Below, one piece after another: positions 24,379-56,178 of a stretch of 64,000 nt of DNA. Position 1 is the stretch's first letter. Each line of letters opens with the position of its first letter. Position numbers and translations under genes: made by a program. The notes beneath the pieces were generated by a model, which was given only the letters and a program-made list of their open reading frames with translations, was not told the DNA's origin and searched no databases. The stretch is from Methanobacteriota archaeon (GTDB lineage: Archaea > Thermoplasmatota > Thermoplasmata > SG8-5 > DAIRED01): positions 82,091-146,090 of the forward strand of contig JAZDNO010000006.1 in the NCBI GenBank assembly GCA_043799545.1, read 5' to 3'.

Positions 24379-25499
24379 TGCGATTCGTTCACATCTCTGA
24401 TACCCACCTGGGGCACACGGCATACACCAAGCTGGATGAGAACGGTTACAACCAGCGCGAGGCCGACGTTTTCGACGCGTTCAAGCAGGGGGTGGACAAA
24501 GCGCTGGCCCTGAAGGTCGACGCCGTGCTACACACGGGCGACCTGTTCGATTCCATCAGGCCGTCCAACAGGGCGATGCACTTCGCCCTGGAGCAGATTC
24601 TGCGCCTCTCGGAGGCGGAGGTGCCGTTCGTGGCAATCGCCGGCAACCACTCGTCGCCGCGGCTGCGCGAAACGGGGAGCGTCTTCAGGCTCTTCGAGCA
24701 CTTGAAAGGCGTCCGCGTAGTCTATGCCGGGGCGTACGAGCAAGTGGACGTCGGGGACGTCGCCGTCCACTGCGTGCCCCACTGCGCCACCCAGGACGCT
24801 TTCGCAGAGGAAGTCCGCAAGGTGTCGCCCTTGCCTGGAAAAACCAACGTGGCCATGCTGCACTGCGGCGTCAGCGGCGTCGAGCGCTTCGCGATGGGGG
24901 AGTTCAACGAGAACCTGCTGCCGAGCGGGCAGCTGTGGCCAGAGATGGAATACATCGCGCTGGGTCATTTCCACGACAGGACAATAGTCGCCGCGAACGC
25001 GGCTTACGCCGGCTCGACCGAGCGGATGAGCTTCAACGAGGCGGGGAAGGAAAAAGGGGTCGTTGAGGTGAGCGTTCCGAGGATGTCCATGGAGTTCCAC
25101 GGACTGAAAATCAGGGAGATGGTAGACTTTGGCAAACTGGATTGCGCCGGTCTGACGAACGCCGACATCATCCGGACAGTCGAAGGGCGGCTTCTTTCCT
25201 CAAAGGCGGATGGCAAAATCATGCGCATCAGGCTGACGGGCATCCCGCGCAGCCAGGTCGACGGCCTCGACCAAAAACGCCTAAGGAGCGCGGTGAGCGG
25301 GGCGCTCCACTTCGAGCTCAGAATCGAGACGCTGGAGGAGTGCGCCGGTGCGCAGGGCACGCAGGCTGCAATCGGTGATTTGCGCAACGAGTTCGAGGCG
25401 TTCGTATCGGGGACGCCGGTAGAGCGCTTGGACAAGGCCGAGCTCCTGAAGCTCGGGCGGGGATACATCGACGGAGCCATGAACGAAGCGGGGGGCTAG
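24378..25499 (+). CDS. mre11: Mre11 DNA double-strand break repair nuclease
   Basis: Calcineurin-like phosphoesterase motifs (MRFVHISDTHLGH, GDLFD, GNHS, HCGV, LGHFH). Overlaps the herA stop by 1 nt. Confidence 0.85.
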   Translation: MRFVHISDTHLGHTAYTKLDENGYNQREADVFDAFKQGVDKALALKVDAVLHTGDLFDSIRPSNRAMHFALEQILRLSEAEVPFVAIAGNHSSPRLRETGSVFRLFEHLKGVRVVYAGAYEQVDVGDVAVHCVPHCATQDAFAEEVRKVSPLPGKTNVAMLHCGVSGVERFAMGEFNENLLPSGQLWPEMEYIALGHFHDRTIVAANAAYAGSTERMSFNEAGKEKGVVEVSVPRMSMEFHGLKIREMVDFGKLDCAGLTNADIIRTVEGRLLSSKADGKIMRIRLTGIPRSQVDGLDQKRLRSAVSGALHFELRIETLEECAGAQGTQAAIGDLRNEFEAFVSGTPVERLDKAELLKLGRGYIDGAMNEAGG

Positions 25500-25500
25500 A

Positions 25501-44209: not shown

Positions 44210-46624
44210 GTGGTTCCCAAAGCTGGCAAAGACGAAGAAGCGACCTGTCCGGTCTGCGGTGGGCCCATAGACGAGGCTGGCGCGAAATGCGCCCGGTGCG
44301 GCGCGGCCTATGTCGCCCCTGGAGACAGAAAGGCGAAAAAGAAGGTCCAGATTGCCCACGGCAGCAAGCCCGAGAAAAAGGAGGCTGCACCCGAGAAACC
44401 TCCCCAGGCAGCGAACGATTCTAAGAATGCGGCCGCCAAGGAAAGCAACGCCGACCTGGCCAAATGGCTGAGCGGCGAGGAGGAGGAAAAGGGCCTGACG
44501 GACTGGCTTGGTGGCGGCAAGACTGAGGCGAAACAGCCGTCCAGGCCCAGCGCAAAGCCAGCTCCGGCACAAGATGCCAAGGACTCCAACGTCGACGCTC
44601 TCAAAGCCTGGCTCAGCGGTGAGGAGGACACGCTTACTTCGTGGCTTGGTGAAGACCCCACGGCGAAACCCAAGGCCGCCTCGGTCCCGTCAGTGGTCTC
44701 GGACGAGGTCAGCAAGGAGCTGGGGGAGCGGGAGAGCGCCCTCGCTGAGAAGGAGACCGCCTTGAAAAAGCGCGAGGAAGACCTCGATGCCATGAGGGGG
44801 GCGCTTCAGGAGCAGCTTTCAAAGGTCCAGACGGGCGAGTTCGATCCGATGGTCCTAATAGAAGAGACGGCCAGGCTCAACAGGGATCTCCAGGCGGAGG
44901 TGAGGAAGCGCAAGGAGCTGGACGACGAAATTGTCCAGGTCAAGAAGGGAAGCATCGCGGTCATCAAGTACGTCAAAGCGCAGCAGATGCAGCGCGGCGG
45001 GGACGCGGCCCGCTCCATCCACAAGCGTCTGGACGAGGTCACCGCGGAGAAGGAGAGGCTCACAGTCGAACTCAAGAAGACCATGGAAATAAACGAAAAG
45101 ATGAAGGCGGACATGGCCGAGGGGCTGAAAGCCCTGCCCGACGGCGACCGGGCCATCAAGGAGAAGGAGATGGCCCTGATGGAGCAGGAAAAGCAGCTGG
45201 AAGCATCGAAAGCGGAGCTGCATGAGAAGGAAAAGCAGATGCGCGAAGCGGTGATTTCCTCCGGCGGGGGGGTAGGGGCGGCTTCGGCTGAGTTGCAGCA
45301 GCGCTTGATGGCCGAGCTCGGGGAGAAAGAGAAGGAATGGCTCAAGAACGAGGGCGAGCTGAAGAAGCGCATACTCGACCTTGAAGCCAACATACAGGAG
45401 CTTAAGATTAACCAGAAGCAGGTCCAGGAGGCGGCGGAGCTCAAGGGCAAGGGTGCGGAGGTCAACGCAGAGCTCGAGCGCAAGATACGCGAGCTTCAGA
45501 TAAAAGAGAAGGCGATGCTCCTCAGGGAGGAGGAGATAAGGAGGCTGTCCCAGCAGCTGAAGGACAAGGACGAGGAGCTCAAGAAGGTCAAGGAGCCCTT
45601 GAAGTACAAGGAGGAGGAGCTGCTGAGGCGCGAAGAGGACCTGCTCCACCGCGAGAAGATATTGATGGAGGAGCGCAGGAAGTACGAGGAGGCGGTGAAA
45701 GACACCGGCAGCCTCCAGACGCACGACATGAAGATGAAGATTGAGGAGCTGAACCAGGAGATAAACCGCAAGGAGGAGCAGATACGCACCAAGGAGCAGT
45801 ACCTCAACGCCAAGATGGAGGACCTTAAGCTGAGGGAGCAGGGGCTCATAGGCCAGGAAATCGAGGCGCGCGAGGAAGACCGCAAGCTGGAGCTGAAAAT
45901 CGAGAAGGTCAAAACGGGCACTTCGAGACTGGACGACCTTCTGCTCGGAGGCATACCTTTCGGGACGAACGTCCTGGTCTACGGTCCGCCTTTCGCCGGA
46001 AAGGAGATTGCCATCAACGCCTTCATCGCAGACGGCCTGAAGAAGGGCGTTCCGGCAATCTGGGTCATCACCGACAAGCTCCCCTCCGAGATACGCGAGG
46101 AGATGATGTTCATAGTGTCAGGGTACGAGGAATACGAAAAGCTCGGCCTGGTCAAATACGTAGATGCGTATTCCAAGAGCATCGGCGAGGTCACGCCTGA
46201 CCCCAATGTCACTTACATCGAAGAGGCCACGGACCACGTGGGCATCTTGAAGGCAGTGGACGCGGTGGCGAAGGAGCTGCTGCAGAAGCACAAGTACTAC
46301 CGGGTGGGGTTCAGGTCGATTTCCACCCTGATAGCGTACCTGGATTCGAACGCCGCATTCAAATTCCTACAGCCGTTCGTCGGCAGGCGCAAGCGCGAGC
46401 GCGCCGTATCCCTCTTCTCCATCGAGAAGGGAATGCACAGCGACCAGGACATCCAGATGATCGGAAGCCAGATGGACGGGGCCATAGAATTCAAGATCGA
46501 GCAGCTGAAGACCTTCCTTTGCATCAAGGGAATCGGCGACGTGCAGTCGAAGGCGTGGATAGAATACACATACAGCAAGCAGGGCATGGCAGTTGGCTCA
46601 TTCAGCTTGGACCATATACGTTAA
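44210..46624 (+). CDS. Zn-ribbon plus WLSGEE-repeat region plus about 450-aa coiled coil plus C-terminal KaiC/RecA-like (FlaH-like) domain with degenerate Walker A
   Basis: N-terminal CPVCGG..CARCG ribbon. Two repeats of LxxWLSGEE..T.WLG. An extremely E/K/L-rich heptad region. The C-terminus LDDLLLGGIPFGTNVLVYGPPFAGKE..ITDKLP has a KaiC-like fold, but the Walker A ends GKE instead of GKT/S. Confidence 0.55.
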   Translation: MVPKAGKDEEATCPVCGGPIDEAGAKCARCGAAYVAPGDRKAKKKVQIAHGSKPEKKEAAPEKPPQAANDSKNAAAKESNADLAKWLSGEEEEKGLTDWLGGGKTEAKQPSRPSAKPAPAQDAKDSNVDALKAWLSGEEDTLTSWLGEDPTAKPKAASVPSVVSDEVSKELGERESALAEKETALKKREEDLDAMRGALQEQLSKVQTGEFDPMVLIEETARLNRDLQAEVRKRKELDDEIVQVKKGSIAVIKYVKAQQMQRGGDAARSIHKRLDEVTAEKERLTVELKKTMEINEKMKADMAEGLKALPDGDRAIKEKEMALMEQEKQLEASKAELHEKEKQMREAVISSGGGVGAASAELQQRLMAELGEKEKEWLKNEGELKKRILDLEANIQELKINQKQVQEAAELKGKGAEVNAELERKIRELQIKEKAMLLREEEIRRLSQQLKDKDEELKKVKEPLKYKEEELLRREEDLLHREKILMEERRKYEEAVKDTGSLQTHDMKMKIEELNQEINRKEEQIRTKEQYLNAKMEDLKLREQGLIGQEIEAREEDRKLELKIEKVKTGTSRLDDLLLGGIPFGTNVLVYGPPFAGKEIAINAFIADGLKKGVPAIWVITDKLPSEIREEMMFIVSGYEEYEKLGLVKYVDAYSKSIGEVTPDPNVTYIEEATDHVGILKAVDAVAKELLQKHKYYRVGFRSISTLIAYLDSNAAFKFLQPFVGRRKRERAVSLFSIEKGMHSDQDIQMIGSQMDGAIEFKIEQLKTFLCIKGIGDVQSKAWIEYTYSKQGMAVGSFSLDHIR

Positions 46625-46777: not shown

Positions 46778-47200
46778 TCATGCGACTTCGATTCCGGATG
46801 AGGGCTTGGGTCCCGGGCTCTTCCCGATGTTGACCTGCGGCATCGGAATCGGCGGGGGCATCTTCAGGTCCCTGGAGACCATGACCGCCTCTGGCACGCA
46901 GTTCATCATTATCGCCTGGTGAACCTGCGTCGCCACGTCGTCCGGCATCTTGTGCTCGGTCTGCCACTGCTTGGCGACCGCGCTGGCATTGCCTTCGAAG
47001 ACCATCTTGCCCTCGATTTTAATGAAGCCGATGCTCGAGTAGTTGGCTGTGAATCTGAACTCCACGTTGGCCTCCTTGTTATTGATTTCGGAGATGAGCG
47101 TTATACTGCTGTTGTGGTCTATCCTGATGTTGCCCATGGCCTCACCCAGCTTCGTGAAGCGCCGCGCGTCAATCGAGGTGAACTCGAAATTCGTTATCAT
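46778..47200 (-). CDS. Hypothetical protein
   Basis: 140-aa ORF with coding-like composition and no recognisable motifs. A possible about 50-aa hydrophobic mini-ORF (MKADWVFSPWFLMGILILT...) follows in another frame at 46629..46780. Confidence 0.3.
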   Translation of the reverse strand: MITNFEFTSIDARRFTKLGEAMGNIRIDHNSSITLISEINNKEANVEFRFTANYSSIGFIKIEGKMVFEGNASAVAKQWQTEHKMPDDVATQVHQAIMMNCVPEAVMVSRDLKMPPPIPMPQVNIGKSPGPKPSSGIEVA

Positions 47201-47332: not shown

Positions 47333-49543
47333 TCAGCTGTGTTCAAGCCCTATGTTCGAGCATCGAATACGCTCCGATGGTGGCAAATAAATCCGGACTT
47401 GAACCGCAGAATCGCTTCGTTTAGCAATCAAGTTCGATGATTCTGCAAGTTCAAGTCCCCTGCGGCATGAATAGCTGAAAAAATAAAACCTAATGCCGCA
47501 GGCCGGACTTGAACCAGCGACAACTTGATCTTCAGTCAAGCACTCTCCCAGCTGAGTTACTGCGGCACCGTCTCCGGGAAGCCCGCCAGCGTTGCGCTCC
47601 TCTGTGGCGGAGGGGGTTGATTGGACTGCCCCTACATTAAGCTTGCCTTCCCCACCTCTGGTGACCTCGGTGATATTCTCAACAAAGCTCCAGTTCACGG
47701 CGTAGATTTCCGCCCACGTCCCGCGGGTTTCGTTCTCGAACGAGGCGGCCAATACGAACGGCTCCTCCCTCAGCATCGCGAGCGTCTCGTCCGAGACCGG
47801 GGGAAGGCTCATGCCGGCCAGGGAGACCCCGCTGACGCGCATCACGTCGTCCACGAGCACGCAGCCCACGCGGGTCCCGTTCGTTCCGTTTAGTACGTCC
47901 ATGCAGTCGCGCCATTGTGTGGCGTTCCAGATGGCGGCGCCTCCCTCGAACGTCGCCCGGAGTCCCATGGCCTCCAGCTGCGTTCCGAGCCTGTGGTCGG
48001 TTGCGACAGAATATCCAGGGGTGGCGTTCTGGCCAAGCCAATCTAGCGCCGCCAGGTCTTCGTCGCTTATCCGTTCGTCGAAGCCAATCTCAGGCGCCAA
48101 ACGGTAGCTTGCCAGAGCGCTCCCGACAAGCAATGCGACGACCAGGACGGGGACGACGGCGCGCGAACCGACCCTCCAACCCTTTTCATCGATCCAGACG
48201 CCCCTGCCCTCCCACTGTTGCCGTGTGTCCAAGGATGCTGGCCGCAGGTCCGAAATGAATGCCGCATCGCTTCCCCCGACCGTTCCTCCACTCTTGGGCA
48301 GGAAGGGGATGAACCTTCTGGTGGTCTCCATGGAAAAGGCCCTCTCAATGCTTGGCGCAAGCAGGAAAGCCATCCCCATGGCCGCGAAGAGCGACAGTGG
48401 CTCCATCAGGTACTCGAGGTGCCTCTCCGGCAAAAGAATGTCGCTGCCGACTGCGAGCGCAACCGCCATAGAGAGTCCAACCGCCGCGAACCATCCTACG
48501 ATTTCAGAACCCCTTTCAAGCATGGCGGTCCTGCTCAACCCAACAGCGCCGAAGGCCAGGATGGCGAAGACAGGCACAGAATAGACCGCGAGCATGGGAG
48601 TGGCCCTCGATGCTATGGCCGGGCTGTCGGCGATTACCAGCAATGCAATCGTGAAGGTAAGGGCTGAGAACGCGAGTATGAATTTCATTTTTTCATAGCC
48701 TCGCGACACGGGGTCGGAAAGCCAATCCAAGACCGACCTGAACCGTCTCCTGAGAACCAGCAAAGCCGCGGCGAACACCGCATATGCCAGAACGATTGCC
48801 GGCCAGGGGAGCCTGGTTCCTGTTTTCACGAAGGAGAGCACCTCGGTCGCGACGAGCCCCCAGTAAGCGAACGCGAGACATGCGGCGAACGCGATGTATG
48901 CTAGCTGGGCCTTCGAGGGGGCTCGGCGCTGAAGCGCAACCATAGCCGGAAGGGACGCCAGATACAGGTAGGTTGTGAAGTGGTGGGAGCCCACCAGCAG
49001 AGCCGTCGAAGCGATGAGGAGCGCCCAGTCCGCCCTGCCCATCGAGGGCTTGGTCAGCAGGAACATGCATGCCAGGAAGAAGAAATGGCCCATCGTCAAA
49101 GGAGCCGCGTGGCTCGTCTGGTAGACGTGGACGGAATTGACAGCCAAGAGAGCCATGGCGAGAAGCGCGGTTCGGCGCCCCATTCCCGCATTCCTGGCTA
49201 TGAAGTACACGAAGGCCACGGATAGCCCGCCGAACACAGGCGCGACCTTCGTCATCAGCCAGAACGCGTCCGAACCCGTGAGCAGGTGCGGTAATGCCGT
49301 AACCAAATAGAGCACCGGAAAATGCTCGTACGATTGCCCCCATCCGATATATGGCGGGAACAGCGCCCCGTTGTTTATGACCGAAGATGTGAGACCGTAA
49401 TAAATTCCCATATCGCTTCCCCATCCAGAATATATCCAGGCTGGAACTGAGCGAAGGGCGATTGCGAGGGCGCAGAGCCCGATGAAAGCGAGGGCGTGCG
49501 GATTTCGCAGATGCCGCCCGAGAAGCGCCCCCGTTCGAGACAT
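47333..49543 (-). CDS. Polytopic membrane protein with a large sequon-rich extracytoplasmic C-terminal domain, possibly a GT-C-fold glycosyltransferase (ArnT/PMT-like)
   Basis: About 13 TM helices, then a soluble domain with many N-x-S/T sequons. No WWDYG motif, so not a canonical AglB. Start taken at MSRTGALLG; the tracked ORF runs to 49957. The open reading frame continues through tRNA-Phe to 47333. Confidence 0.4.
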   Translation of the reverse strand: MSRTGALLGRHLRNPHALAFIGLCALAIALRSVPAWIYSGWGSDMGIYYGLTSSVINNGALFPPYIGWGQSYEHFPVLYLVTALPHLLTGSDAFWLMTKVAPVFGGLSVAFVYFIARNAGMGRRTALLAMALLAVNSVHVYQTSHAAPLTMGHFFFLACMFLLTKPSMGRADWALLIASTALLVGSHHFTTYLYLASLPAMVALQRRAPSKAQLAYIAFAACLAFAYWGLVATEVLSFVKTGTRLPWPAIVLAYAVFAAALLVLRRRFRSVLDWLSDPVSRGYEKMKFILAFSALTFTIALLVIADSPAIASRATPMLAVYSVPVFAILAFGAVGLSRTAMLERGSEIVGWFAAVGLSMAVALAVGSDILLPERHLEYLMEPLSLFAAMGMAFLLAPSIERAFSMETTRRFIPFLPKSGGTVGGSDAAFISDLRPASLDTRQQWEGRGVWIDEKGWRVGSRAVVPVLVVALLVGSALASYRLAPEIGFDERISDEDLAALDWLGQNATPGYSVATDHRLGTQLEAMGLRATFEGGAAIWNATQWRDCMDVLNGTNGTRVGCVLVDDVMRVSGVSLAGMSLPPVSDETLAMLREEPFVLAASFENETRGTWAEIYAVNWSFVENITEVTRGGEGKLNVGAVQSTPSATEERNAGGLPGDGAAVTQLGECLTEDQVVAGSSPACGIRFYFFSYSCRRGLELAESSNLIAKRSDSAVQVRIYLPPSERIRCSNIGLEHS
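47380..47467 (-). other. tRNA-like remnant with Phe-type acceptor start, T-arm-like copies and an 8-bp hairpin
   Basis: Begins GCCGCAGG like tRNA-Phe and contains GGTTCAAGTCCGG (a T-arm copy), but no foldable cloverleaf. The long hairpin is GCAGAATC...GATTCTGC. More CTTGAAC/GTTCAAG motifs lie at 47320..47360. Confidence 0.35.
47494..47566 (-). tRNA. tRNA-Phe (anticodon GAA)
   Basis: Reverse complement GCCGCAG-TA-ACTC-AGCTGGGA-GAGT-G-CTTGA-CTGAAGA-TCAAG-TTGTC-GCTGG-TTCAAGT-CCGGC-CTGCGGC-A is a perfect cloverleaf with a 7-bp acceptor and a GAA anticodon. Confidence 0.85.
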
Positions 49544-49726: not shown

Positions 49727-50674
49727 TTGGGGCTTGAGAAGATGTATAGAGGAAGGCGAGGAGAGGGTGGGCGCATAAACCCCTCCCCGAGATGGGGGAG
49801 CGAGGGTGTAGCTTCCACCGTGGGAACGATAATGGCCCTGATGGTTTTCATGGCGATGCTCTCCGTCTTCACTAACCAGTACGTCCCGGTCTGGATGGAG
49901 GACAACGAAGCGAAGCATATGAACGTCGTCGAATCCCAGATGGGAATGCTCAAGCACGGGATTGACACGCAGATACTGGTGGGCCAGCTCGGTGGCGCCA
50001 CGGACATCTCGGTGTACAGTCCCATTACACTGGGTTCGGAGGGCGTTCCGATGTTCGCAGCCCCGACTCAGGGTTATCTGGACGTGCTCCCGGACAGGGG
50101 GCGAAGCACGGTTAATTTCCAGTTCGACCCCAACCCCACGGACCCGACCAGCACACCGGTATCGATTACCTCCTCAAGCACCGGCAGCATAGCCATGGAA
50201 GCCCCGAACCGGTACTACGTTCCGCAGATACTCACATACGAGAACGATGCAATCATCCTCAAGCAGGGCGATGGGGTCATCATGAAGAGCGTTCCCCAGT
50301 TCAGTGTGAGGCAGGAGGGCAACAACTTCCGCGTCTCCTTCACGCAAGTCACTCTCTACGGTGTCAATAAATCGTACGTTGGAAGCGGGACGACCGGGGT
50401 GCACACATCCCTGAGGTACACGAATTCCAGCACGTACAACAACCTCACGACAGATGTCACGATAACGATAACGAGCACGTACGCAAACGCATGGAATGCC
50501 TATTTTAGCGACTACTTGCCCAGAGCGGGTCTCCTTCCGGCGGAATACACGATAGTGCTCAATCCCCCGTTGGCGCCCACACAGCTTGTTCTCACGCTGC
50601 GTATGAACTCTTTCTCCAGCGTCACGGTGAACCAGGCGTATTTCGAAATCCTCATGGGGGAGGTGGGCGAGTAA
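49727..50674 (+). CDS. Type IV pilin-like / FlaF-FlaG-like protein with an N-terminal class-III-signal-like hydrophobic segment
   Basis: A basic N-terminus (RGRRGEGGR) followed by ASTVGTIMALMVFMAMLSVFTNQYVPVW resembles archaeal prepilin/FlaF N-termini. The rest is beta-rich with sequons. First gene of the pilus-like cluster. Confidence 0.45.
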   Translation: MGLEKMYRGRRGEGGRINPSPRWGSEGVASTVGTIMALMVFMAMLSVFTNQYVPVWMEDNEAKHMNVVESQMGMLKHGIDTQILVGQLGGATDISVYSPITLGSEGVPMFAAPTQGYLDVLPDRGRSTVNFQFDPNPTDPTSTPVSITSSSTGSIAMEAPNRYYVPQILTYENDAIILKQGDGVIMKSVPQFSVRQEGNNFRVSFTQVTLYGVNKSYVGSGTTGVHTSLRYTNSSTYNNLTTDVTITITSTYANAWNAYFSDYLPRAGLLPAEYTIVLNPPLAPTQLVLTLRMNSFSSVTVNQAYFEILMGEVGE

Positions 50675-52356
50675 TGGGCCTGAAAGAATCGTACATTGGG
50701 GCGGTGATGAAGGCCGGTTCAAAGAAGATAAAGAAGATGGTCCCCAAAGGCGAGCTGGTCCTGGAGCAGGATTGGAAGGAAGGCCGCGGTTCGCCGCTCT
50801 CCCCAATACCAGAGCTGACGAAAACGACGATGGAGGAGCTGGAGCTGGCTCCGATCAACCCTCCGTTCAGCTATTCGAGGATATTTTACGATTCCGAGAC
50901 CGCAGAATATATATATCAGACCATAGAGCCCCCGATGAGCGACAAGGAGCTGGACCTGCTCCGCCTGATAAAGGACTCGTTGGGCCGGACTCTGGAGTAC
51001 GAGCTGGACAAAATGGGCAACAAGGACAAGGAGGAGTACCTGAAGCGCAGCATAGAGAGCTTCCTGAAAACGCGCAGCCTCAGGATAGACCCCCAGTCAA
51101 AGGAGAAGATTGTGTATTACATAGTCAGAGACTACGTTGGCTACGGCCCGATAGACGTCCTGATGTCGGACCCAAAGATTGAAGATATTTCGTGCGACGG
51201 CGTCAACGTCCCGCTTTTCATATTCCACCAGAAGTACGAATCGATCAAGACGAGCGTCAAGTTCCCGAACGAGGCGGAGCTGAACAGCTTTGTAGTCCAG
51301 CTGGGACAGAGGTGCGGCAAGCAGATTTCCGTCGCCACGCCTATCTTAGACGGTACGACTGGCGAGGGCCACCGCGTCCAGGCGACGTACTCCCGCGAGG
51401 TAACGACCCGCGGCTCGTCGTACACCATCCGCCGTTTCAAGGAGAAGCCTTTCACTCCGGTGGAAATGATAAAGTTCAACACCGCGAACGCGGAGATGAT
51501 AGCATACATGTGGCTGGCGGTCGAGCACGGGAAGTCGATGATAATATGCGGCGGCACGGCGAGCGGAAAAACGGCCACTCTCAATGCGTCCGCCATATTC
51601 ATCGCCCCTGGCAAGAAGATAGTCACGATGGAGGATACGAGAGAGATTAACCTTCCTCACGAAAACTGGATTCCGGGCACGACGCGCACGGGGGTGGGGG
51701 AGCGCGGGCCGGACGGGAAGGCGCCAGGCGAGATAGACATGTTCGAGCTCGTCAGGGCGGCGCTGAGGCAGAGGCCGAACTACATCATCGTCGGAGAGGT
51801 TCGTGGAAAGGAGACCTCGACGATGTTCCAGGCGATGGCTACGGGTCATACGACATTCTCGACGATGCACGCCGACTCGGTGAAGAGCATGGTGACAAGG
51901 CTGGAGAACCCGCCAATCAGCACGCCCAGGATTCTCTTGACGGCGCTGAACTTCGTCATCATCCAGCTCCACGTCCGAGTCAAGGACAGCGAGGTCAGGC
52001 GTATCACCCAAATAGTCGAATTGGTGGGATTCGAGCCCGAAACCAACGAGCTGATAACCAACACGGTCTACGAGTGGGACCAGCGCACGGACTCTTTCAT
52101 CTACAAGGGGCACAGCTTCATCCTGGACGGTCTCATGGAGATGAAGAACATGACCCACGAGGAGATGCAGCGGGAGTTCACCCAGCGCGTGGACGTCATC
52201 AAGTATCTGGTCGAGAAGGACATCACGGATTACAGGGAGATAAACAACCTTATCGTGCTTTACTACAAGGATGCCACGGCGACTGTCACCAAAATAAGGG
52301 AGGAAATGGGCTGGACAGTCCAGGTCCAGATGGAGGGCGGCGAAGTTGGCGCATGA
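50674..52356 (+). CDS. FlaI/TadA-type type IV filament assembly ATPase, copy 1
   Basis: Walker A GGTASGKTATLNA, Asp box MEDTREINLPHENW, Walker B IIVGEVRGKE, His box TFSTMHADSV. An extended N-terminal domain as in archaeal FlaI. Confidence 0.85.
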   Translation: MGLKESYIGAVMKAGSKKIKKMVPKGELVLEQDWKEGRGSPLSPIPELTKTTMEELELAPINPPFSYSRIFYDSETAEYIYQTIEPPMSDKELDLLRLIKDSLGRTLEYELDKMGNKDKEEYLKRSIESFLKTRSLRIDPQSKEKIVYYIVRDYVGYGPIDVLMSDPKIEDISCDGVNVPLFIFHQKYESIKTSVKFPNEAELNSFVVQLGQRCGKQISVATPILDGTTGEGHRVQATYSREVTTRGSSYTIRRFKEKPFTPVEMIKFNTANAEMIAYMWLAVEHGKSMIICGGTASGKTATLNASAIFIAPGKKIVTMEDTREINLPHENWIPGTTRTGVGERGPDGKAPGEIDMFELVRAALRQRPNYIIVGEVRGKETSTMFQAMATGHTTFSTMHADSVKSMVTRLENPPISTPRILLTALNFVIIQLHVRVKDSEVRRITQIVELVGFEPETNELITNTVYEWDQRTDSFIYKGHSFILDGLMEMKNMTHEEMQREFTQRVDVIKYLVEKDITDYREINNLIVLYYKDATATVTKIREEMGWTVQVQMEGGEVGA

Positions 52357-53371
52357 GACCGTCGATGCCTTCAGAAGCCTGGAGGCGAAGGACCAGCACC
52401 TCAAGACGAAGCGCCTTCGCTCGGACGAGGAAAGGGAGGCCGGGCCGCACGTGGTCCTGCTTCCGAAGGGCGCGGTGCCGGAGTACATCAAGCTCACTCC
52501 GTACCAGGAGTTCTGCTGGCGCACCATGGGCAACTACGTCAAGCGTCGTGGCATGAGGGACGAGTTGATGGAGGAGAACCTCGTGAAGGCGCATATGAAG
52601 ATACGCCCCGAGGAGTACTTCGCGCTCATCTACATGACGACCATTATAGCGGCCATAGGAGGCGTCGTGGCTGGCACTGTCATGGCAATATTATTCTTCG
52701 TGGTTTTCACCACCACCGCCATGGTGCTGGGTATTATGTTGACCGTGCTGCCCCCAATCTTGATTCCCATTCTGGTATTCAACGTCCTCAAGGGCTCGCC
52801 GAAGAGCAAGGCGAAGGGCCGCGCGCGGAATATTGATAAAAGGATGGCCAGCGCGATGAGCTTCATTTCCGCGATGGCATCGGCGAACGTTCCCATCGAC
52901 GTGATATTCAAGGAGCTTGGAAGGCAGCCAGTCTACGGCGAAATCAAGTCCGAGGCCGAGTGGATTACCCGTGACACGGAGCTGCTGGGTGTTGACATCA
53001 TCACCGCCGTCAAGAGCGGCTCCCTGCGGTCGCCCTCGACGAAGTTCCAGGACTTCCTCCAGGGCGTCGTCACAACCACGACATCCGGGGGCCAGCTGAA
53101 ACCGTACTTCATGACGAAGGTGGACCAGTTCGAGAAGGAAGACAAGCTTTTGATGAAGCAGACTATGGAAACGCTCTCGATGCTCGCAGAAAGCTACGTG
53201 ACGGTCGTGGTCGCGTTCCCGCTTTTCCTTGTCGTCATCCTCGCGATTATGGCAATCATAGGCGGCACGGCGGCGTCGACTGTAATGATACTATGGCTGG
53301 TAGTGGGACTGATGATTCCGATGGCTATGTTCGGCTTCATATTCGTGATTTGGAACATCAGCCAGGACTGA
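52346..53371 (+). CDS. TadB/FlaJ-like platform membrane protein (T2SS-F domain), first half
   Basis: Cytoplasmic T2SSF-like domain followed by 3 TM helices, 341 aa. Overlaps the ATPase stop by 11 nt. Confidence 0.7.
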   Translation: MAHETVDAFRSLEAKDQHLKTKRLRSDEEREAGPHVVLLPKGAVPEYIKLTPYQEFCWRTMGNYVKRRGMRDELMEENLVKAHMKIRPEEYFALIYMTTIIAAIGGVVAGTVMAILFFVVFTTTAMVLGIMLTVLPPILIPILVFNVLKGSPKSKAKGRARNIDKRMASAMSFISAMASANVPIDVIFKELGRQPVYGEIKSEAEWITRDTELLGVDIITAVKSGSLRSPSTKFQDFLQGVVTTTTSGGQLKPYFMTKVDQFEKEDKLLMKQTMETLSMLAESYVTVVVAFPLFLVVILAIMAIIGGTAASTVMILWLVVGLMIPMAMFGFIFVIWNISQD

Positions 53372-53375
53372 TAGC

Positions 53376-54416
53376 ATGGCCAAACAACAGCAGCAGATGA
53401 CCAATGAGGAGATGAAGAGGGTCGTGATGTCGACCAAGCGCGACCTCACCAGGGTAATCCTTGGCGTCAGCATAGCCGTGGCTATGATATTCGTCATCCT
53501 CGGCGTCCTTAACCTGACCAACCCCCAAGAGTTCGATCACTCGATGAAGGCTTTGAAGCTCAAGGACACCAACCTGGACGGCAGGATAGACTATCTGGAC
53601 ATCAACGCGGGTTACGACAGCAACGGGGACGACGTTCCAGACCAGGGTGAGTACCCCATCAAGCGCTTGGCCAACTTCGTGGTTTTCGCGATGATGGTCA
53701 TGATAGGGCCTTATGCATTCTACAAGTCGAAACAGGATGCCAACATAGTCGCCATCGAGCGCAGGCTTCCAGAGTTCCTCAGGGACGTGGCGGAGGCCGG
53801 GCGCTTCGGCATGACCCTCGCCGACGCCATCGTGGTCGCCGCCAACGGCCGCTACGGCAAGCTTACCATCGAAATCAAGAAGATGGCCGCGCAGATAGAG
53901 TGGGGCGTGCCCGCCTCCGAAGCTCTGAGGCTCTTCGCGGTGCGCATCAACACGCCGGGCGTAAACAGGCTCGTGGCTGTCATCATCAAGGCGAGCGATG
54001 CGGGCGGAAACGTCGCCGACGTTCTGACGATGGTGTCGCACGACGCTCGCGAGACGCAGCTGTCGAAGGACGAGCGGGCGATATCGATGAGCACGTACCT
54101 GGCGGTTGTTTACATCTCTTTCTTCGTTTTCCTCGTGACCATCATCATCTTGAACGCGACGTTCCTACCGAAGATACGCGAGGCGGGAACGATGGTCACC
54201 AGGGCATCGGCCGAGGCGGGGGTTTCCGGCGGAATGGCAACGCTGGACGTCACGGTCATACCCCAGATTGAGCTGGCGTTCTTCGTCTCATCGATGATTC
54301 ACGCGGTCGGCGACGGCATTATGGCCGGCGTGCTGACGAACGGAAAGGTGGCTGCCGGACTGAAGCACTCGTTCATCCTTCTGCTCCTGGGATTCGTCGT
54401 CCTGCAGGTGACCTGA
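53376..54416 (+). CDS. TadC/FlaJ-like platform membrane protein (T2SS-F domain), second half
   Basis: 346 aa with an N-terminal TM segment, a T2SSF-like cytoplasmic domain (RLPEFLRDVAEAGRFGMTLADAI) and C-terminal TM helices. A separate start codon lies 4 nt after the previous stop. Confidence 0.7.
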   Translation: MAKQQQQMTNEEMKRVVMSTKRDLTRVILGVSIAVAMIFVILGVLNLTNPQEFDHSMKALKLKDTNLDGRIDYLDINAGYDSNGDDVPDQGEYPIKRLANFVVFAMMVMIGPYAFYKSKQDANIVAIERRLPEFLRDVAEAGRFGMTLADAIVVAANGRYGKLTIEIKKMAAQIEWGVPASEALRLFAVRINTPGVNRLVAVIIKASDAGGNVADVLTMVSHDARETQLSKDERAISMSTYLAVVYISFFVFLVTIIILNATFLPKIREAGTMVTRASAEAGVSGGMATLDVTVIPQIELAFFVSSMIHAVGDGIMAGVLTNGKVAAGLKHSFILLLLGFVVLQVT

Positions 54417-54426
54417 GGTGAGATGA

Positions 54427-56178
54427 ATGGCGTCCGAGTCCGCGTTGGAGGAAAAGGGGAAGCCCGAAGCCCAGGCCGTGGTGGAAGACGACCAGGCCGT
54501 CGACGAGAGCGGTTTCATGCAGGCGGTGCATTCCGCTCGCGCCAAGCTCGCCAAAAGGATGATGGGCGAGGGCAAGGGCTACAAGATAATGAATGCGAAG
54601 GTGGACGACTCCTTCAAAGGCGAGGTCACAACCATACCCAAGCTAACTGACAAGCACATGAGCGAGATAGAGATTGTGCCGGCTATCAAGGGATTTTCGT
54701 ACATCCGGATTAAGTACGACAACGTTTCCAACGAGTACATCTACGAGGCAATCGAACCGCAGCTCAGCAGCGAGGAGGAGAACCTGCTCTCCATTTTCAA
54801 GGAGATACTCGTGGAGGCGCTGGAGTTTCTGGCGGACACCAGGGTGGAGGCTAAGGAGAAGTACCTCAAGGGGGCCGTCTCCAGCATCCTGGCCGACCTC
54901 GGCATCACGCTCAACCCAGCCTCGAAGGAGCGCATCACCTACTACATCATGAGGGATTTCATCCGCTACGCGGCGCTCGACGTGGCAATGATAGACCCCG
55001 AGGTGGAGGACGTATCCTGCGACGGAGTGAACGTTCCGATATATATCTATCACAGGAAATACGGCTCTATCCAGTCGAACATCCGGTTCAAGACGGCCCC
55101 GGAGCTGGACAGCTTCGTCGTCTGGCTGGCCCAAAAGTGTGGCAAGCACATCTCCGTCGCCGAGCCTATGCTCGACGCGACTATTCCAGACGGCTCGAGG
55201 CTGCAGGCCACGCTGGGGATGCACGTCACCAAGCGCGGCTCCTCATTCACAATCCGCAGGTTCAAGGAGAACCCTTTCACCCCGCTGGACCTCATCCGGT
55301 TCAAGACCATGTCGCTAGACATGATGGCTTACCTCTGGCTCTGCATCGAGAACGGGAAATCGATGCTCGTATGCGGAGGCACTGCGAGCGGTAAAACGAC
55401 CACGCTCAACGCGATTCTTCTGTTCATCCCGCCTCAGATGAAGATTGTCAGCATCGAGGACACGCGCGAGCTGAACCTCCCGCACGAGAACTGGGTCCCG
55501 ACCCTGACCAGGGCAGGTTTCGGCGGGAAGAACCCGGTGACGGGAAAGGCTGCTGGCGAGATAGACATGTTCGACCTGCTCACGGCCGCGCTGAGGCAGC
55601 GCCCCCAGTACCTGATGGTCGGCGAGGTCCGTGGTTCGGAGGCGTACGTCGTGTTCCAGGCCATGGCTACGGGCAAGACCGCATACACCACGTTCCACGC
55701 CGAAGACGTCCAGTCGATGGTCCACAGGATGGAGAACCCGCCGATATCGCTGCCGAGGGCGCTAATCGGGGCTCTGAACCTGGTGATGATGCAGGCACAG
55801 GTGAAGGTTGGCACGAAGATGACGAGGCGCGTCAAGTCCCTCACGGAGGTCGTGGGCATGGACCCCGAGACGAACGAGCTCATTACGAACTCGGTCTACA
55901 CGTGGAACCCGGCGGACGACACGTTCAACTACTCCGGTCACAGCTACATTTACGAGGACATCACGATGAGGAAGAACTGGTCCCCGAGGGAGATGCAGCG
56001 CGAGGTCAAGCGCCGGATAGACGTTCTATCGTGGATGAGCAAAGCCAATATGAACAACTACCGCCAGGTCGCGAGGATTGTCTCCGGGTACTACAAGGAC
56101 AAGGACCGGGTCATCGAGGAGCTCAACAAGTACGCCGCAGACGAAGAGGCTAAGAAGGCTGCGGCCCCGAAAGCGTAG
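54427..56178 (+). CDS. FlaI/TadA-type type IV filament ATPase, copy 2 (paralog of 50674..52356)
   Basis: Walker A GGTASGKTTTLNA, IEDTRELNLPHENW, LMVGEVRGSE, TTFHAEDV. About 55 to 60% identical to copy 1 over the conserved regions I compared by eye. Confidence 0.85.
   Translation: MASESALEEKGKPEAQAVVEDDQAVDESGFMQAVHSARAKLAKRMMGEGKGYKIMNAKVDDSFKGEVTTIPKLTDKHMSEIEIVPAIKGFSYIRIKYDNVSNEYIYEAIEPQLSSEEENLLSIFKEILVEALEFLADTRVEAKEKYLKGAVSSILADLGITLNPASKERITYYIMRDFIRYAALDVAMIDPEVEDVSCDGVNVPIYIYHRKYGSIQSNIRFKTAPELDSFVVWLAQKCGKHISVAEPMLDATIPDGSRLQATLGMHVTKRGSSFTIRRFKENPFTPLDLIRFKTMSLDMMAYLWLCIENGKSMLVCGGTASGKTTTLNAILLFIPPQMKIVSIEDTRELNLPHENWVPTLTRAGFGGKNPVTGKAAGEIDMFDLLTAALRQRPQYLMVGEVRGSEAYVVFQAMATGKTAYTTFHAEDVQSMVHRMENPPISLPRALIGALNLVMMQAQVKVGTKMTRRVKSLTEVVGMDPETNELITNSVYTWNPADDTFNYSGHSYIYEDITMRKNWSPREMQREVKRRIDVLSWMSKANMNNYRQVARIVSGYYKDKDRVIEELNKYAADEEAKKAAAPKA

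What the first reader, a model, noticed from the sequence alone, without database searches (positions are those of the whole stretch)
49727..56178. Tad-like type IV pilus cluster with a split platform protein and two full-length paralogous ATPases
The gene order is pilin-like, FlaI/TadA-like ATPase, TadB-like, TadC-like, second FlaI/TadA-like ATPase, with 0 to 11-nt spacers or overlaps. Archaeal type IV filament loci usually encode one ATPase and one FlaJ-like platform protein. Here the platform is two genes, as in bacterial TadB/TadC, and there are two complete ATPases. Each has all four nucleotide-binding motifs and is about 55 to 60% identical to the other in the conserved regions I compared by eye. 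A second ATPase could be a specialised paralog. It could also be an extension/retraction pair, but no retraction ATPase has been established in archaea. The cluster is convergent with a 2253-aa surface protein that could be its adhesin or anchor.
Basis: partly seen in the sequence, partly recalled or inferred. Interest (0 to 1): 0.6.

Follow-up and report, generated by a model that had tools for sequence, protein, structure and literature searches.

The report
Thermoplasmata pilus operon with two motors
This is a real type IV pilus assembly operon of a Thermoplasmata archaeon with two old, intact motor ATPases flanking a platform protein split into two genes; the layout was first described in 2025 in Cuniculiplasma and is shown here to be conserved across the class.

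Summary
Window 49727-56178 (+) encodes a pilin-like protein, ATPase E1, platform N-half Fa, platform C-half Fb and ATPase E2, with overlaps or spacers of 1-11 nt. E1 and E2 are 50% identical. They are not an assembly artefact, and both keep Walker A, Asp box, Walker B/catalytic Glu and the gamma-phosphate His.

The layout is already published. Gaines et al. 2025 (PMC12448462) described two ATPases plus a split platform in Cuniculiplasma divulgatum and called it unique. Cuniculiplasma-like loci have the same E-Fa-Fb-E order, and their first and second ATPases match E1 and E2 respectively.

New here:
- The cassette is present, in the same order, in every one of 76 Thermoplasmata/Methanomassiliicoccales loci long enough to judge.
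- The duplication is ancient and younger than the platform split.
- E2 has replaced the first His-box histidine (K/R in 71 of 77; always His in E1 and the outgroups).
- Paralogue-specific residues cluster beside what I take, from motif position only, to be an arginine-finger motif.

Most likely the two ATPases are obligate, non-redundant partners on one Fa/Fb platform. An extension/retraction pair is not excluded. The split platform is common in euryarchaeal pili, and the ATPases are GspE2/PilB3-like rather than TadA-like. Verdict: new member of a known kind, moderate interest.

The parts
49743..50674 (+). Pilin-like protein with a class III (prepilin-type) signal peptide. Predicted cleavage is after ...W-G-S-E-G, before V-A-S-T-V-G-T-I-M-A-L-M-V-F. 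Probably a minor or accessory pilin of the machinery. The mechanical ORF opens at TTG 49727.
   Evidence: Pfam DUF7289, 31 bits. It is the only FlaFind-type signal peptide candidate near the operon. The motif EG|VASTVGTIM is nearly invariant in 40 homologues. The AlphaFold2 model (pLDDT 87.7, pTM 0.78) has a 64-residue N-terminal helix followed by an all-beta head. No convincing PDB neighbour was found. A homologue lies immediately upstream of E1 in 58 of 71 loci.
50674..52356 (+). E1: the first secretion-superfamily (T2SSE, GspE2/PilB3-like) ATPase, with a canonical His box (ATGH...H).
   Evidence: Pfam T2SSE 1.5e-34 and PilB3_C. Best solved relative is A. fulgidus GspE2 (2oap, 8e-121). All motifs are conserved in 77 of 77 orthologues. 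The E1 clade has 100% NJ bootstrap support.
52346..53371 (+). Fa: the N-terminal half of a FlaJ/PilC-type platform protein, with one T2SSF domain. Its start overlaps the end of E1 by 11 nt.
   Evidence: Pfam T2SSF 2e-11. It matches ArlJ/FlaJ profile positions 18-243 of 555. It is 36% identical to C. divulgatum CdiPFa, E=3e-47.
53376..54416 (+). Fb: the C-terminal half of the platform protein, with one T2SSF domain.
   Evidence: Pfam T2SSF 5e-19. It matches ArlJ/FlaJ profile positions 316-546 of 555. It is 32% identical to CdiPFb, E=1e-37.
54427..56178 (+). E2: the second T2SSE ATPase. It keeps Walker A, Asp box, catalytic Glu and the second His-box histidine, but has Lys in place of the first His-box histidine (ATGK...H).
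   Evidence: Pfam T2SSE 1e-33. It is 50% identical to E1. PDB 2oap matches at 8e-123. At the first His-box position, 77 E2 orthologues have K (67), R (4), T (3) or H (3), against H in 77 of 77 E1 and in all outgroups. The E2 clade has 100% bootstrap support.
56229..62990 (-). Convergent 2253-aa surface protein. It has a signal peptide, a large CARDB-rich ectodomain with 49 N-glycosylation sequons, a single TM helix near residues 1938-1965, and a cytoplasmic tail with four zinc ribbons. It is a conserved neighbour and a possible surface-layer protein, adhesin or anchor. The link to the pilus is inferred from synteny only.
   Evidence: Pfam CARDB 1e-43, DZR and Zn_ribbon. Homologues sit in the same convergent position in L001-L003 and in 45 of 65 loci. 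It is absent next to the Thermoplasmatales-like operons.
44210..46624 (+). Upstream 804-aa protein with an N-terminal zinc ribbon, about 400 aa of coiled coil, and a C-terminal KaiC/FlaH-like P-loop domain. Possibly an accessory or regulatory ATPase of the system. The association is weak.
   Evidence: Pfam KaiC 7e-14, DUF7504 and DUF7090. Sequence shown. A homologue lies upstream in 19 of 58 loci (also L002). Makarova 2016 lists KaiC-family ATPases as T4P-associated.
46778..47200 (-). Conserved 140-aa ORF of unknown function. It travels with the KaiC-like gene upstream of the operon.
   Evidence: No Pfam hit. Homologues are in the same position in 19 of 58 loci.

Best explanation
The region is the assembly operon of the Thermoplasmata-type type IV pilus, the 'CdiP-type' machinery first described in Cuniculiplasma divulgatum.

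Proposed working:
- A prepilin-like protein is made with a class III signal peptide. It is trimmed by a prepilin peptidase encoded elsewhere and inserted in the membrane by its conserved hydrophobic helix.
- Fa and Fb are the two complementary halves of an ordinary FlaJ/PilC platform. Together they form one platform.
- The cytoplasmic ATPases E1 and E2 dock under that platform and use ATP to lift pilins out of the membrane into a filament.
- E1 and E2 come from one ancient duplication in the Thermoplasmata lineage. The duplication happened after the platform gene had already split.
- Both ATPases have been kept, in fixed order and tightly coupled, in every lineage sampled. They are therefore non-redundant partners with divided labour, not spare copies.

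The version I favour: E1 is the canonical motor subunit. E2 is a catalytically competent but re-tuned partner. Its altered His box, and the altered surroundings of what I take to be an arginine-finger motif, change how neighbouring subunits talk to each other. The two would act either as a mixed E1/E2 hexamer or as two rings alternating on the same platform.

Shown: gene content, orthology, age and conservation of the duplication, motif states, and the pilin-like architecture. Inferred: pilus production, use of a shared platform, and any hetero-oligomer.
For: - Domain content and the N-half/C-half split are established.
- The core order E-Fa-Fb-E is the same in Cuniculiplasma-like, Caldiplasma and Thermoplasmataceae loci. 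Fa and Fb are 36% and 32% identical to the published CdiPFa and CdiPFb.
- In 76 of 76 loci with two full ATPases, the first is E1-like and the second E2-like.
- NJ bootstrap support is 100 for E1, 100 for E2, and 100 for E1+E2 against afGspE2, FlaI and CpaF. The E1|E2 split gets 84 when the Thermoplasmatales-like sequences are included.
- The first ATPases of Thermoplasmatales-like loci score 53-69 bits higher on the E1 profile. The second ones score 34-71 bits higher on the E2 profile. afGspE2 is neutral.
- A single-ATPase locus with a split platform (L090) falls outside E1+E2 in 96 of 100 bootstraps.
- Both families keep Walker A Lys, Asp box, Walker B Gly-Glu and the second His in 77 of 77 sequences. 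Mean column conservation is 0.74 for E1 and 0.75 for E2.
- The first His-box position is His in 77 of 77 E1 sequences. In E2 it is K, R or T in 74 of 77.
- In PilB this His packs, together with the gamma-phosphate His, around a Thr of the neighbouring subunit, and the His box was proposed to mediate inter-chain cooperativity (PMC5424180).
- Six of the 18 paralogue-discriminating columns lie in E1 residues 227-245, around the G[HS]R[VL]QAT motif (hypergeometric P=1.6e-5).
- Gene overlaps are conserved in JGI, NCBI and ENA gene calls.
- C. divulgatum makes pili and transcribes this operon.
Against: - No experiment links this operon to a filament in any organism. Even in C. divulgatum the link is by homology, and the pilins are encoded about 500 kb away.
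- No major PilA-type pilin and no prepilin peptidase were found in the 64-kb window.
- Nothing here shows that E1 and E2 touch each other. A co-variation scan between the E2 His-box state and E1 columns gave only phylogenetic signal.
- RNA-seq in C. divulgatum gave Fa:Fb of about 2:1, not 1:1.
- Three Methanomassiliicoccus-labelled MAGs carry His at the E2 position, so the substitution is not indispensable.
- The trees are distance-based NJ. With the long-branch Thermoplasmatales sequences and the outgroups together, simple monophyly was not recovered.
- Equating G[HS]R[VL]QAT with the PilB arginine finger rests on motif position, not on a structural alignment.
Confidence: 0.6

Rival explanations
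1. Extension/retraction pair. One ATPase polymerises the pilus and the other depolymerises it, as PilB and PilT do in bacteria. This would be the first dedicated archaeal retraction motor.
For: There are two conserved, catalytically intact paralogues in one operon. E2 has a systematic active-site-adjacent change. Gaines et al. raise this analogy themselves.
Against: C. divulgatum cells adhered but showed no twitching. E1 and E2 have the same length and domain architecture, whereas PilT-type motors lack the N-terminal domain. Both score far below the PilT-family cutoff (48 and 41 bits against 319). Per Gaines et al., the single Aap ATPase appears to power both assembly and retraction, so a second motor is not required for retraction. 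The strict 1:1 operon coupling with overlapping genes looks more like subunits of one complex.
Confidence: 0.2
2. Two machines in one operon. E1 works with Fa and E2 with Fb, each half-platform acting as a homodimer. Or the two ATPases serve different cargos, for example the pilus versus the display of the neighbouring giant CARDB surface protein.
For: The gene order is mirror-like, with each ATPase next to one half-platform. Some actinobacterial Tad systems work with only one of TadB/TadC (Denise 2019). The CARDB giant is a frequent convergent neighbour.
Against: Fa and Fb are complementary N- and C-halves of one FlaJ-type protein, not two equivalent copies. A related single-ATPase system (L090) still has both halves. 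The Thermoplasmatales-like operons keep both ATPases with no CARDB neighbour. No locus with E1-Fa only or Fb-E2 only was seen among 76 loci.
Confidence: 0.12
3. Redundant or decaying duplicate, or an assembly artefact.
For: None beyond the bare fact of two similar genes.
Against: The proteins are only 50% identical, and DNA similarity is at most 76% over 84 nt. Both copies are conserved in fixed positions in 76 of 76 loci from independent assemblies. All catalytic motifs are retained. Column conservation is similar and high for both.
Confidence: 0.02
4. A degenerate archaellum locus, or a bacterial Tad system acquired horizontally.
For: The best NCBIfam hit by name is the FlaI model (420-431 bits). 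The split platform resembles TadB/TadC.
Against: Both ATPases are below the FlaI cutoff of 550 bits. No FlaH, FlaF, FlaG, FlaC/D/E or archaellin genes are adjacent. TadA scores 143 bits against a 373 cutoff, and CpaF gives 138 bits against 414 for archaeal GspE2. No TadZ or secretin was seen. All relatives are archaeal.
Confidence: 0.02

Closest known systems
CdiP pilus machinery operon of Cuniculiplasma divulgatum (CdiPE1, CdiPFa, CdiPFb, CdiPE2; Gaines et al. 2025, PMC12448462)
   Same: Two T2SSE ATPases plus a platform split into an N-half and a C-half. Cuniculiplasma-like loci have the identical core order E-Fa-Fb-E. Fa and Fb are 36% and 32% identical to CdiPFa and CdiPFb. The first and second ATPases correspond to E1 and E2. 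The E2-type loss of the first His-box histidine is shared, as R there and K here.
   Different: The window operon starts with a 315-aa pilin-like gene and is flanked by a convergent CARDB giant and an upstream KaiC-like gene. The Thermoplasmatales-like loci lack these and are followed by a Na+/H+ exchanger. ATPase identities are only about 40-45%. I could not compare directly with the C. divulgatum S5 ATPase sequences. I used close relatives, the nearest being 88% identical to an OCR copy of CdiPFa.
Euryarchaeal 'Clade 2' type IV pili (Haloferax volcanii PilB3-PilC3 type; Makarova et al. 2016) and Archaeoglobus fulgidus GspE2 (PDB 2oap)
   Same: The ATPases carry the PilB3_C domain. Their best solved relative is afGspE2. 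Many such loci have two tadC-like genes and a 250-550 aa minor pilin.
   Different: Those systems have one ATPase per locus. Here a second paralogue is fixed at the other end of the operon.
Epd pilus of Methanococcus maripaludis and the bacterial Tad/Flp pilus (TadA/CpaF, TadB, TadC)
   Same: The platform is encoded by two adjacent genes with one T2SSF domain each, which arose by fission of a two-domain gene (Denise 2019).
   Different: These have a single ATPase, and their secondary ATPase is TadZ/FlaH-like rather than a T2SSE paralogue. CpaF is a distant relative of E1 and E2 (138-142 bits). There is no secretin, TadZ or Flp-type pilin here.
Bacterial PilB/PilT(/PilU) motor sets of type IVa pili
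   Same: More than one secretion-superfamily ATPase serves one filament system.
   Different: PilT and PilU lack the N-terminal domain and are usually encoded away from pilB-pilC. E1 and E2 are equal-length and co-operonic, and they arose by an independent archaeal duplication.

Membership tests
CdiP-type (Thermoplasmata) type IV pilus machinery | Two paralogous T2SSE ATPases in one operon | tested here: met
   E1 and E2 both hit Pfam T2SSE and are 50% identical.
CdiP-type (Thermoplasmata) type IV pilus machinery | Platform split into an N-half gene and a C-half gene | tested here: met
   Fa matches ArlJ/FlaJ profile positions 18-243 of 555 and Fb matches 316-546 of 555. They hit CdiPFa and CdiPFb at E=3e-47 and 1e-37.
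CdiP-type (Thermoplasmata) type IV pilus machinery | Gene order ATPase - Fa - Fb - ATPase, with position-specific orthology of the two ATPases | tested here: met
   L085-L089 have the same order. BLAST, profile scores and the NJ split (84%) pair first with E1 and second with E2.
CdiP-type (Thermoplasmata) type IV pilus machinery | Assembles a CdiPB-type major pilin into a pilus | not testable with these tools
   No short PilA/Pilin_N-type pilin was found in the window. In C. divulgatum the pilins lie about 500 kb away. The rest of the genome was not available.
Archaellum (ArlI/FlaI, ArlJ/FlaJ, ArlH, ArlF/G, ArlC/D/E or X, archaellins) | ATPase reaches the FlaI equivalog cutoff | tested here: not met
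   NF058587 scores 420 and 431 bits against a cutoff of 550.
Archaellum (ArlI/FlaI, ArlJ/FlaJ, ArlH, ArlF/G, ArlC/D/E or X, archaellins) | Accessory genes (ArlH, F, G, C/D/E) and archaellins in the locus | tested here: not met
   None were found among the operon genes or neighbours by Pfam. The only KaiC-like gene is an 804-aa coiled-coil protein 3 kb upstream.
Bacterial Tad/Flp pilus | TadA/CpaF-type ATPase | tested here: not met
   TIGR03819 scores 143 bits against a cutoff of 373. CpaF structures score 138-142 bits against 407-414 for archaeal GspE2.
Bacterial Tad/Flp pilus | Two single-T2SSF-domain platform genes (TadB/TadC) | tested here: met
   This feature is shared with many archaeal T4P, so it is not diagnostic.
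Bacterial Tad/Flp pilus | TadZ, secretin (RcpA/CpaC) and Flp pilin | tested here: not met
   No such domains were found in the operon or elsewhere in the window.
PilB/PilT extension-retraction pair | A PilT-family ATPase: short, lacking the N-terminal domain, reaching the pilT_fam cutoff | tested here: not met
   TIGR01420 scores 48 and 41 bits against a cutoff of 319. E1 and E2 align over 530 aa including their N-terminal domains.
PilB/PilT extension-retraction pair | Pilus retraction or twitching | not testable with these tools
   The only data are from C. divulgatum, where no twitching was seen.
Type IV pilin-like proteins (class III signal peptide) | Charged leader, [KRDE][GA] cleavage motif, conserved hydrophobic N-terminal helix, globular beta head | tested here: met
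   The motif ...SEG|VASTVGTIMALMVF is nearly invariant in 40 homologues. The AlphaFold2 model has helix 26-89 followed by a beta domain, at pLDDT 87.7.
Type IV pilin-like proteins (class III signal peptide) | Processing by a PibD/EppA/FlaK-type prepilin peptidase | not testable with these tools
   No peptidase A24 motif or domain was found in the window. The rest of the genome was not available.

The most novel reading that the evidence does not exclude
E1 and E2 form an obligate hetero-oligomeric motor, for example an alternating E1/E2 hexamer matched to the pseudo-twofold Fa/Fb platform. This would be the first heteromeric ATPase motor in the type IV filament superfamily. The E2-specific His-box change, and the E1/E2-specific residues beside what I take to be an arginine-finger motif, would be the adaptations of the two kinds of subunit interface. 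A weaker novel variant is that E2 is the first dedicated archaeal retraction ATPase.
Probability: 0.3. Interest if true: 0.75.

Novelty: new member of a known kind. Interest (0 to 1): 0.42.

Why it matters
The 2025 description treated the two-ATPase, split-platform machinery as a curiosity of one acidophile and called the second ATPase 'enigmatic'. The comparison here suggests it is the standard pilus machinery of a whole archaeal class, including Methanomassiliicoccales found in guts and sediments. Both motors have been maintained since before those orders diverged.

That changes the question from 'why does Cuniculiplasma have a spare ATPase' to 'how does a two-paralogue motor work'. It also gives concrete handles for experiments:
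- the E2-specific replacement of the first His-box histidine;
- a cluster of paralogue-specific residues beside what I take to be an arginine-finger motif;
- natural E2 variants that carry His at that position;
- a single-ATPase outgroup that shares the split platform.

If the ATPases prove to be a heteromeric or alternating motor, that would be a new operating mode for type IV filament machines.

Tried and rejected
- An exact-sequence look-up of E2 in the contig index found nothing, although a 100% identical NCBI protein exists.
- The first NJ analysis, with the long-branch Thermoplasmatales sequences and the outgroups together, did not recover E1 or E2 monophyly. I split the test and added profile-HMM classification instead. 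No maximum-likelihood program was available.
- A mutual-information scan between the E2 His-box state and E1 columns returned only phylogenetically confounded signal. I draw no conclusion from it.
- My first two regular expressions for the His box in the 150 representatives failed. The third scored only 100 of 150, so that tally is rough.
- A motif scan (G.GD.K) and Pfam scans of nearly all larger ORFs found no prepilin peptidase and no short major pilin in the window.
- The sigma-70 promoter/terminator scanner was not used, because it does not apply to archaea.
- I considered predicting an artificial E1-linker-E2 fusion.
- The archaellum, bacterial Tad import, assembly artefact and pseudogene readings were rejected, as set out under rival explanations.

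Full report
OBSERVATION

- 49727-50674: a 315-aa pilin-like protein.
- 50674-52356: ATPase E1, 560 aa.
- 52346-53371: Fa, 341 aa.
- 53376-54416: Fb, 346 aa.
- 54427-56178: ATPase E2, 583 aa.

The junctions are a 1-nt overlap, an 11-nt overlap, a 4-nt spacer and a 10-nt spacer. A 2253-aa ORF converges on the operon from 56229-62990, leaving 50 nt between the stop codons.

Pfam finds T2SSE plus PilB3_C in both ATPases and a single T2SSF domain in each membrane protein. NCBIfam aligns Fa to positions 18-243 and Fb to positions 316-546 of a 555-position ArlJ/FlaJ model. Fa and Fb show no BLASTP similarity to each other. The platform is therefore one FlaJ/PilC-type protein cut between its two repeats, not two copies of it.

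E1 and E2 are 50% identical over 530 aa. Their genes share at most 84 nt at 76% identity, so a repeat-collapse artefact is excluded. An AT-rich stretch (atatatatatataataggctataattgg) lies upstream of the first gene. The rest of the window is ordinary archaeal chromosome: hydrogenase subunits, CDC48, NurA-HerA-Mre11-Rad50, HMG-CoA reductase and ADP-forming acetyl-CoA synthetase.

WHO IT BELONGS TO, AND WHETHER THE LAYOUT IS CONSERVED

E2 is 100% identical to a protein of an NCBI 'Methanobacteriota archaeon' MAG. It has thousands of relatives at 65-77% identity in Thermoplasmata MAGs. Three long contigs from JGI, NCBI and ENA carry the same five genes in the same order, followed by a convergent CARDB/zinc-ribbon giant.

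The best 80 loci are nearly all labelled as Thermoplasmata, Thermoplasmatota, Methanomassiliicoccales, Methanomassiliicoccus or unclassified (eury)archaeal MAGs. BLASTP of the window proteins against all ORFs of these loci gave the following:
- Every locus with enough sequence has pilin-like, E1, Fa, Fb and E2 in that order.
- In 76 of 76 loci with two full ATPases, the first is E1-like and the second is E2-like.
- The pilin-like gene is immediately upstream of E1 in 58 of 71 loci.
- A CARDB homologue converges within 3 kb in 45 of 65 loci.
- A KaiC-like gene plus a 140-aa ORF lie upstream in 19 of 58 loci.

WHAT IS ALREADY KNOWN

Gaines et al. 2025 (ISME J, PMC12448462) solved the pilus of Cuniculiplasma divulgatum. 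They described its machinery operon as having two ATPases (CdiPE1, CdiPE2) and a platform split into CdiPFa (N-terminal part) and CdiPFb (C-terminal part). They called the two ATPases 'unique' among archaeal pilus and archaellum operons and their role 'enigmatic'. They saw adhesion but no twitching, and they found the pilin genes about 500 kb away.

Makarova et al. 2016 had already noted that many euryarchaeal T4P loci have two tadC-like genes, a 250-550 aa minor pilin, and associated KaiC-family ATPases. Denise et al. 2019 showed that TadB/TadC and the Epd-like platforms arose by fission of a two-domain gene. The only ATPase duplications they list in the superfamily are bacterial, namely PilB/PilT and PilT/PilU. 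Yelton et al. 2013 reported a T4P gene cluster of conserved order in the acid-mine 'plasmas'. I found no later paper on the CdiP machinery in the searchable library.

IS THE WINDOW OPERON THE SAME THING?

I rebuilt CdiPFa and CdiPFb from the paper's supplementary alignment.
- Window Fa is 36% identical to CdiPFa (E=3e-47), and Fb is 32% identical to CdiPFb (E=1e-37).
- Searching with CdiPFa recovered Cuniculiplasma-like, Caldiplasma and Thermoplasmataceae proteins. Their loci all read ATPase, T2SSF, T2SSF, ATPase, followed by a Na+/H+ exchanger, with no adjacent pilin-like or CARDB gene.
- By BLAST, their first ATPase is closer to E1 and their second is closer to E2.
- Profile HMMs built from the non-Thermoplasmatales E1 and E2 sets agree. 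First ATPases score 53-69 bits higher on the E1 profile and second ATPases 34-71 bits higher on the E2 profile. A. fulgidus GspE2 is neutral.
- Without the long-branch Thermoplasmatales sequences, NJ bootstrap support is 100 for E1, 100 for E2, and 100 for E1+E2 against afGspE2, FlaI and CpaF. With those sequences and without outgroups, the E1|E2 split is found in 84 of 100 replicates.
- A more distant metagenomic locus, L090, has one ATPase followed by two T2SSF genes. Its ATPase falls outside E1+E2 in 96 of 100 replicates.

The likeliest history is therefore that the platform was already split, and the ATPase was then duplicated once in the Thermoplasmata lineage. That duplication predates the divergence of the Thermoplasmatales from the Methanomassiliicoccales-like groups. 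These are distance trees. A first run that mixed the long branches with the outgroups did not resolve the clades, so a maximum-likelihood analysis is still needed.

ARE BOTH ATPASES FUNCTIONAL?

Across 77 E1 and 77 E2 sequences, the Walker A Gly-Lys-Thr, the Asp-box E-D-T-R-E, the Walker B Gly-Glu and the second His-box histidine are invariant or nearly so. Overall column conservation is alike, at 0.74 and 0.75.

There is one systematic difference at a named motif, the first His-box histidine:
- In E1 it is His in 77 of 77 sequences.
- It is also His in afGspE2, FlaI, CpaF and L090.
- In E2 it is Lys in 67, Arg in the 4 Thermoplasmatales-like sequences, Thr in 3 and His in 3.
- Among the 150 nearest 50%-identity cluster representatives, it is His in 91 of the 100 I could score, and never Lys. 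This count is rough.

In Geobacter PilB the second His (H420) contacts the gamma-phosphate. The first His (H413), together with H420, sandwiches a Thr of the neighbouring subunit. The authors proposed that the His box mediates inter-chain cooperativity (PMC5424180).

Eighteen alignment columns are at least 90% conserved within each paralogue but differ between them. Six of these lie in E1 residues 227-245 (P=1.6e-5), flanking the motif G[HS]R[VL]QAT. In that segment E2 keeps the state seen in afGspE2 (DATxPDGSRLQAT), and E1 is the derived copy. By motif position I take this Arg to be the first 'arginine finger' of the superfamily. That equivalence is my own inference, not a tested structural alignment. 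If it holds, both paralogue-specific features sit at places where one subunit reads the nucleotide state of its neighbour.

THE PILIN-LIKE GENE

Its homologues are all annotated as hypothetical proteins of Thermoplasmata MAGs. An alignment of 40 of them shows a variable, positively charged leader followed by an almost invariant W-x-x-E-G-V-A-S-T-V-G-T-I-M-A-L-M-V-F. This fits the archaeal class III signal-peptide rule, and it is the only such candidate near the operon.

NCBI's gene call of 284 aa starts inside this motif and is probably too short. ATG 49743 fits the orthologues.

AlphaFold2 with this alignment gives a confident model (pLDDT 87.7, pTM 0.78) with a 64-residue N-terminal helix and an all-beta head. 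That is the pilin 'lollipop' architecture. The head has no convincing solved relative.

Given its size, it is probably a minor or accessory pilin of the kind Makarova et al. assign to arCOG02911, not the filament subunit. That assignment is an inference. I did not test arCOG membership.

MECHANISM

Shown:
- This is a conserved operon encoding a prepilin-like protein, a platform in two complementary halves, and two ancient, intact, co-inherited ATPase paralogues.
- It corresponds gene for gene to the core (E-Fa-Fb-E) of the Cuniculiplasma machinery.

Inferred:
- It builds a type IV pilus used for adhesion.
- The pilin is processed by a peptidase encoded elsewhere.
- Both ATPases work on the single Fa/Fb platform.

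I favour partnership with divided labour. That could be a mixed hexamer, or two rings alternating on one platform. My reasons are:
- The two genes are never found apart and are translationally coupled to the platform genes.
- They have identical architecture.
- They differ mainly at what appear to be subunit-communication sites.

I put about 0.6 on partnership in this broad sense and about 0.3 on a true hetero-hexamer. An extension/retraction pair (0.2) is not excluded, but nothing supports it. There is no PilT-like truncation and no twitching in C. divulgatum, and per Gaines et al. the single Aap ATPase appears to power both assembly and retraction. Two separate machines or cargos (about 0.1) fits poorly with complementary half-platforms and with the Thermoplasmatales-like loci that lack the CARDB neighbour.

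COMPARISON AND VERDICT

The locus meets every sequence-testable feature of the CdiP-type machinery. It fails the tested defining features of the archaellum, of bacterial Tad, and of a PilB/PilT pair (see the membership table). It is a new member of a kind described in 2025.

What this analysis adds is breadth, history and two paralogue-specific signatures:
- The layout is class-wide rather than unique to one organism.
- There was one old duplication, and it came after the platform fission.
- The two signatures turn 'enigmatic' into testable hypotheses.

Interest is moderate.

Noticed in passing
window 49727-49830: The public annotation of the pilin-like gene (NCBI, 284 aa) starts at a GTG inside the conserved hydrophobic motif. 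It therefore omits the class III signal peptide. Orthologues support a start at ATG 49743.
   Followed up: yes
window 56229-62990 (-): A 2253-aa type I membrane protein. It has a signal peptide, a CARDB-rich ectodomain with 49 N-X-S/T sequons, one TM helix near residues 1938-1965, and a roughly 290-aa cytoplasmic tail with eight CxxC motifs (four zinc ribbons). Homologues converge on the operon in 45 of 65 related loci but not in Thermoplasmatales-like loci. A giant surface protein with a zinc-ribbon cytoplasmic tail is itself unexplained.
   Followed up: partly
window 44210-46624 (+) and 46778-47200 (-): An 804-aa protein with an N-terminal zinc ribbon, about 400 aa of coiled coil, and a C-terminal KaiC/FlaH-like domain (Walker A reads GPPFAGKE). 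Next to it is a 140-aa ORF with no family hit. The pair recurs upstream of the operon in 19 of 58 loci. It could be a FlaH-like accessory of the machinery.
   Followed up: partly
window 47333-49543 (-): A 736-aa polytopic membrane protein with no Pfam hit. It lies between the KaiC-like pair and the operon in the window but not in L002 or other relatives. The mechanical 874-aa ORF over-extends into the pilin-like gene.
   Followed up: partly
L051, L057, L081 (His); L056, L063, L076 (Thr); E2 first His-box position: A few Methanomassiliicoccus-type MAGs carry His or Thr instead of Lys at the E2-specific position. These are natural variants that could be used to test the importance of the substitution.
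   Followed up: no
L062 3104-3625 and L083 9527-10363: In two loci the pilin-like gene lies downstream of E2 instead of upstream of E1.
   Followed up: no
L090 401-6734: A related but distinct system. It has a single 652-aa ATPase, a 294-aa T2SSF gene and a 626-aa T2SSF gene, followed directly by a PAS-domain histidine kinase. It served as the single-ATPase outgroup.
   Followed up: partly
L088 8001-9617: In one Thermoplasmatales-like MAG the Fa homologue is 538 aa instead of about 320 aa, yet a separate 275-aa Fb still follows it. I did not examine the extra part of this Fa.
   Followed up: no
L049, L053, L077: E1, and in two of the loci Fb, appear in several pieces. All three are MFD MAGs, so these may be frameshift errors from sequencing rather than pseudogenes. 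I did not check.
   Followed up: no
window 12459-18253 (-) and 18287-19222 (-): Two adjacent giant TPR proteins of 1032 and 914 aa. The first also has an N-terminal Mrr-type nuclease domain, a zinc ribbon and a C-terminal HhH motif. They sit next to a short (311 aa) ORF with a weak tubulin/FtsZ GTPase hit.
   Followed up: no
window 21811-27921 (+): A complete NurA-HerA-Mre11-Rad50 operon, consistent with an archaeal chromosome.
   Followed up: no
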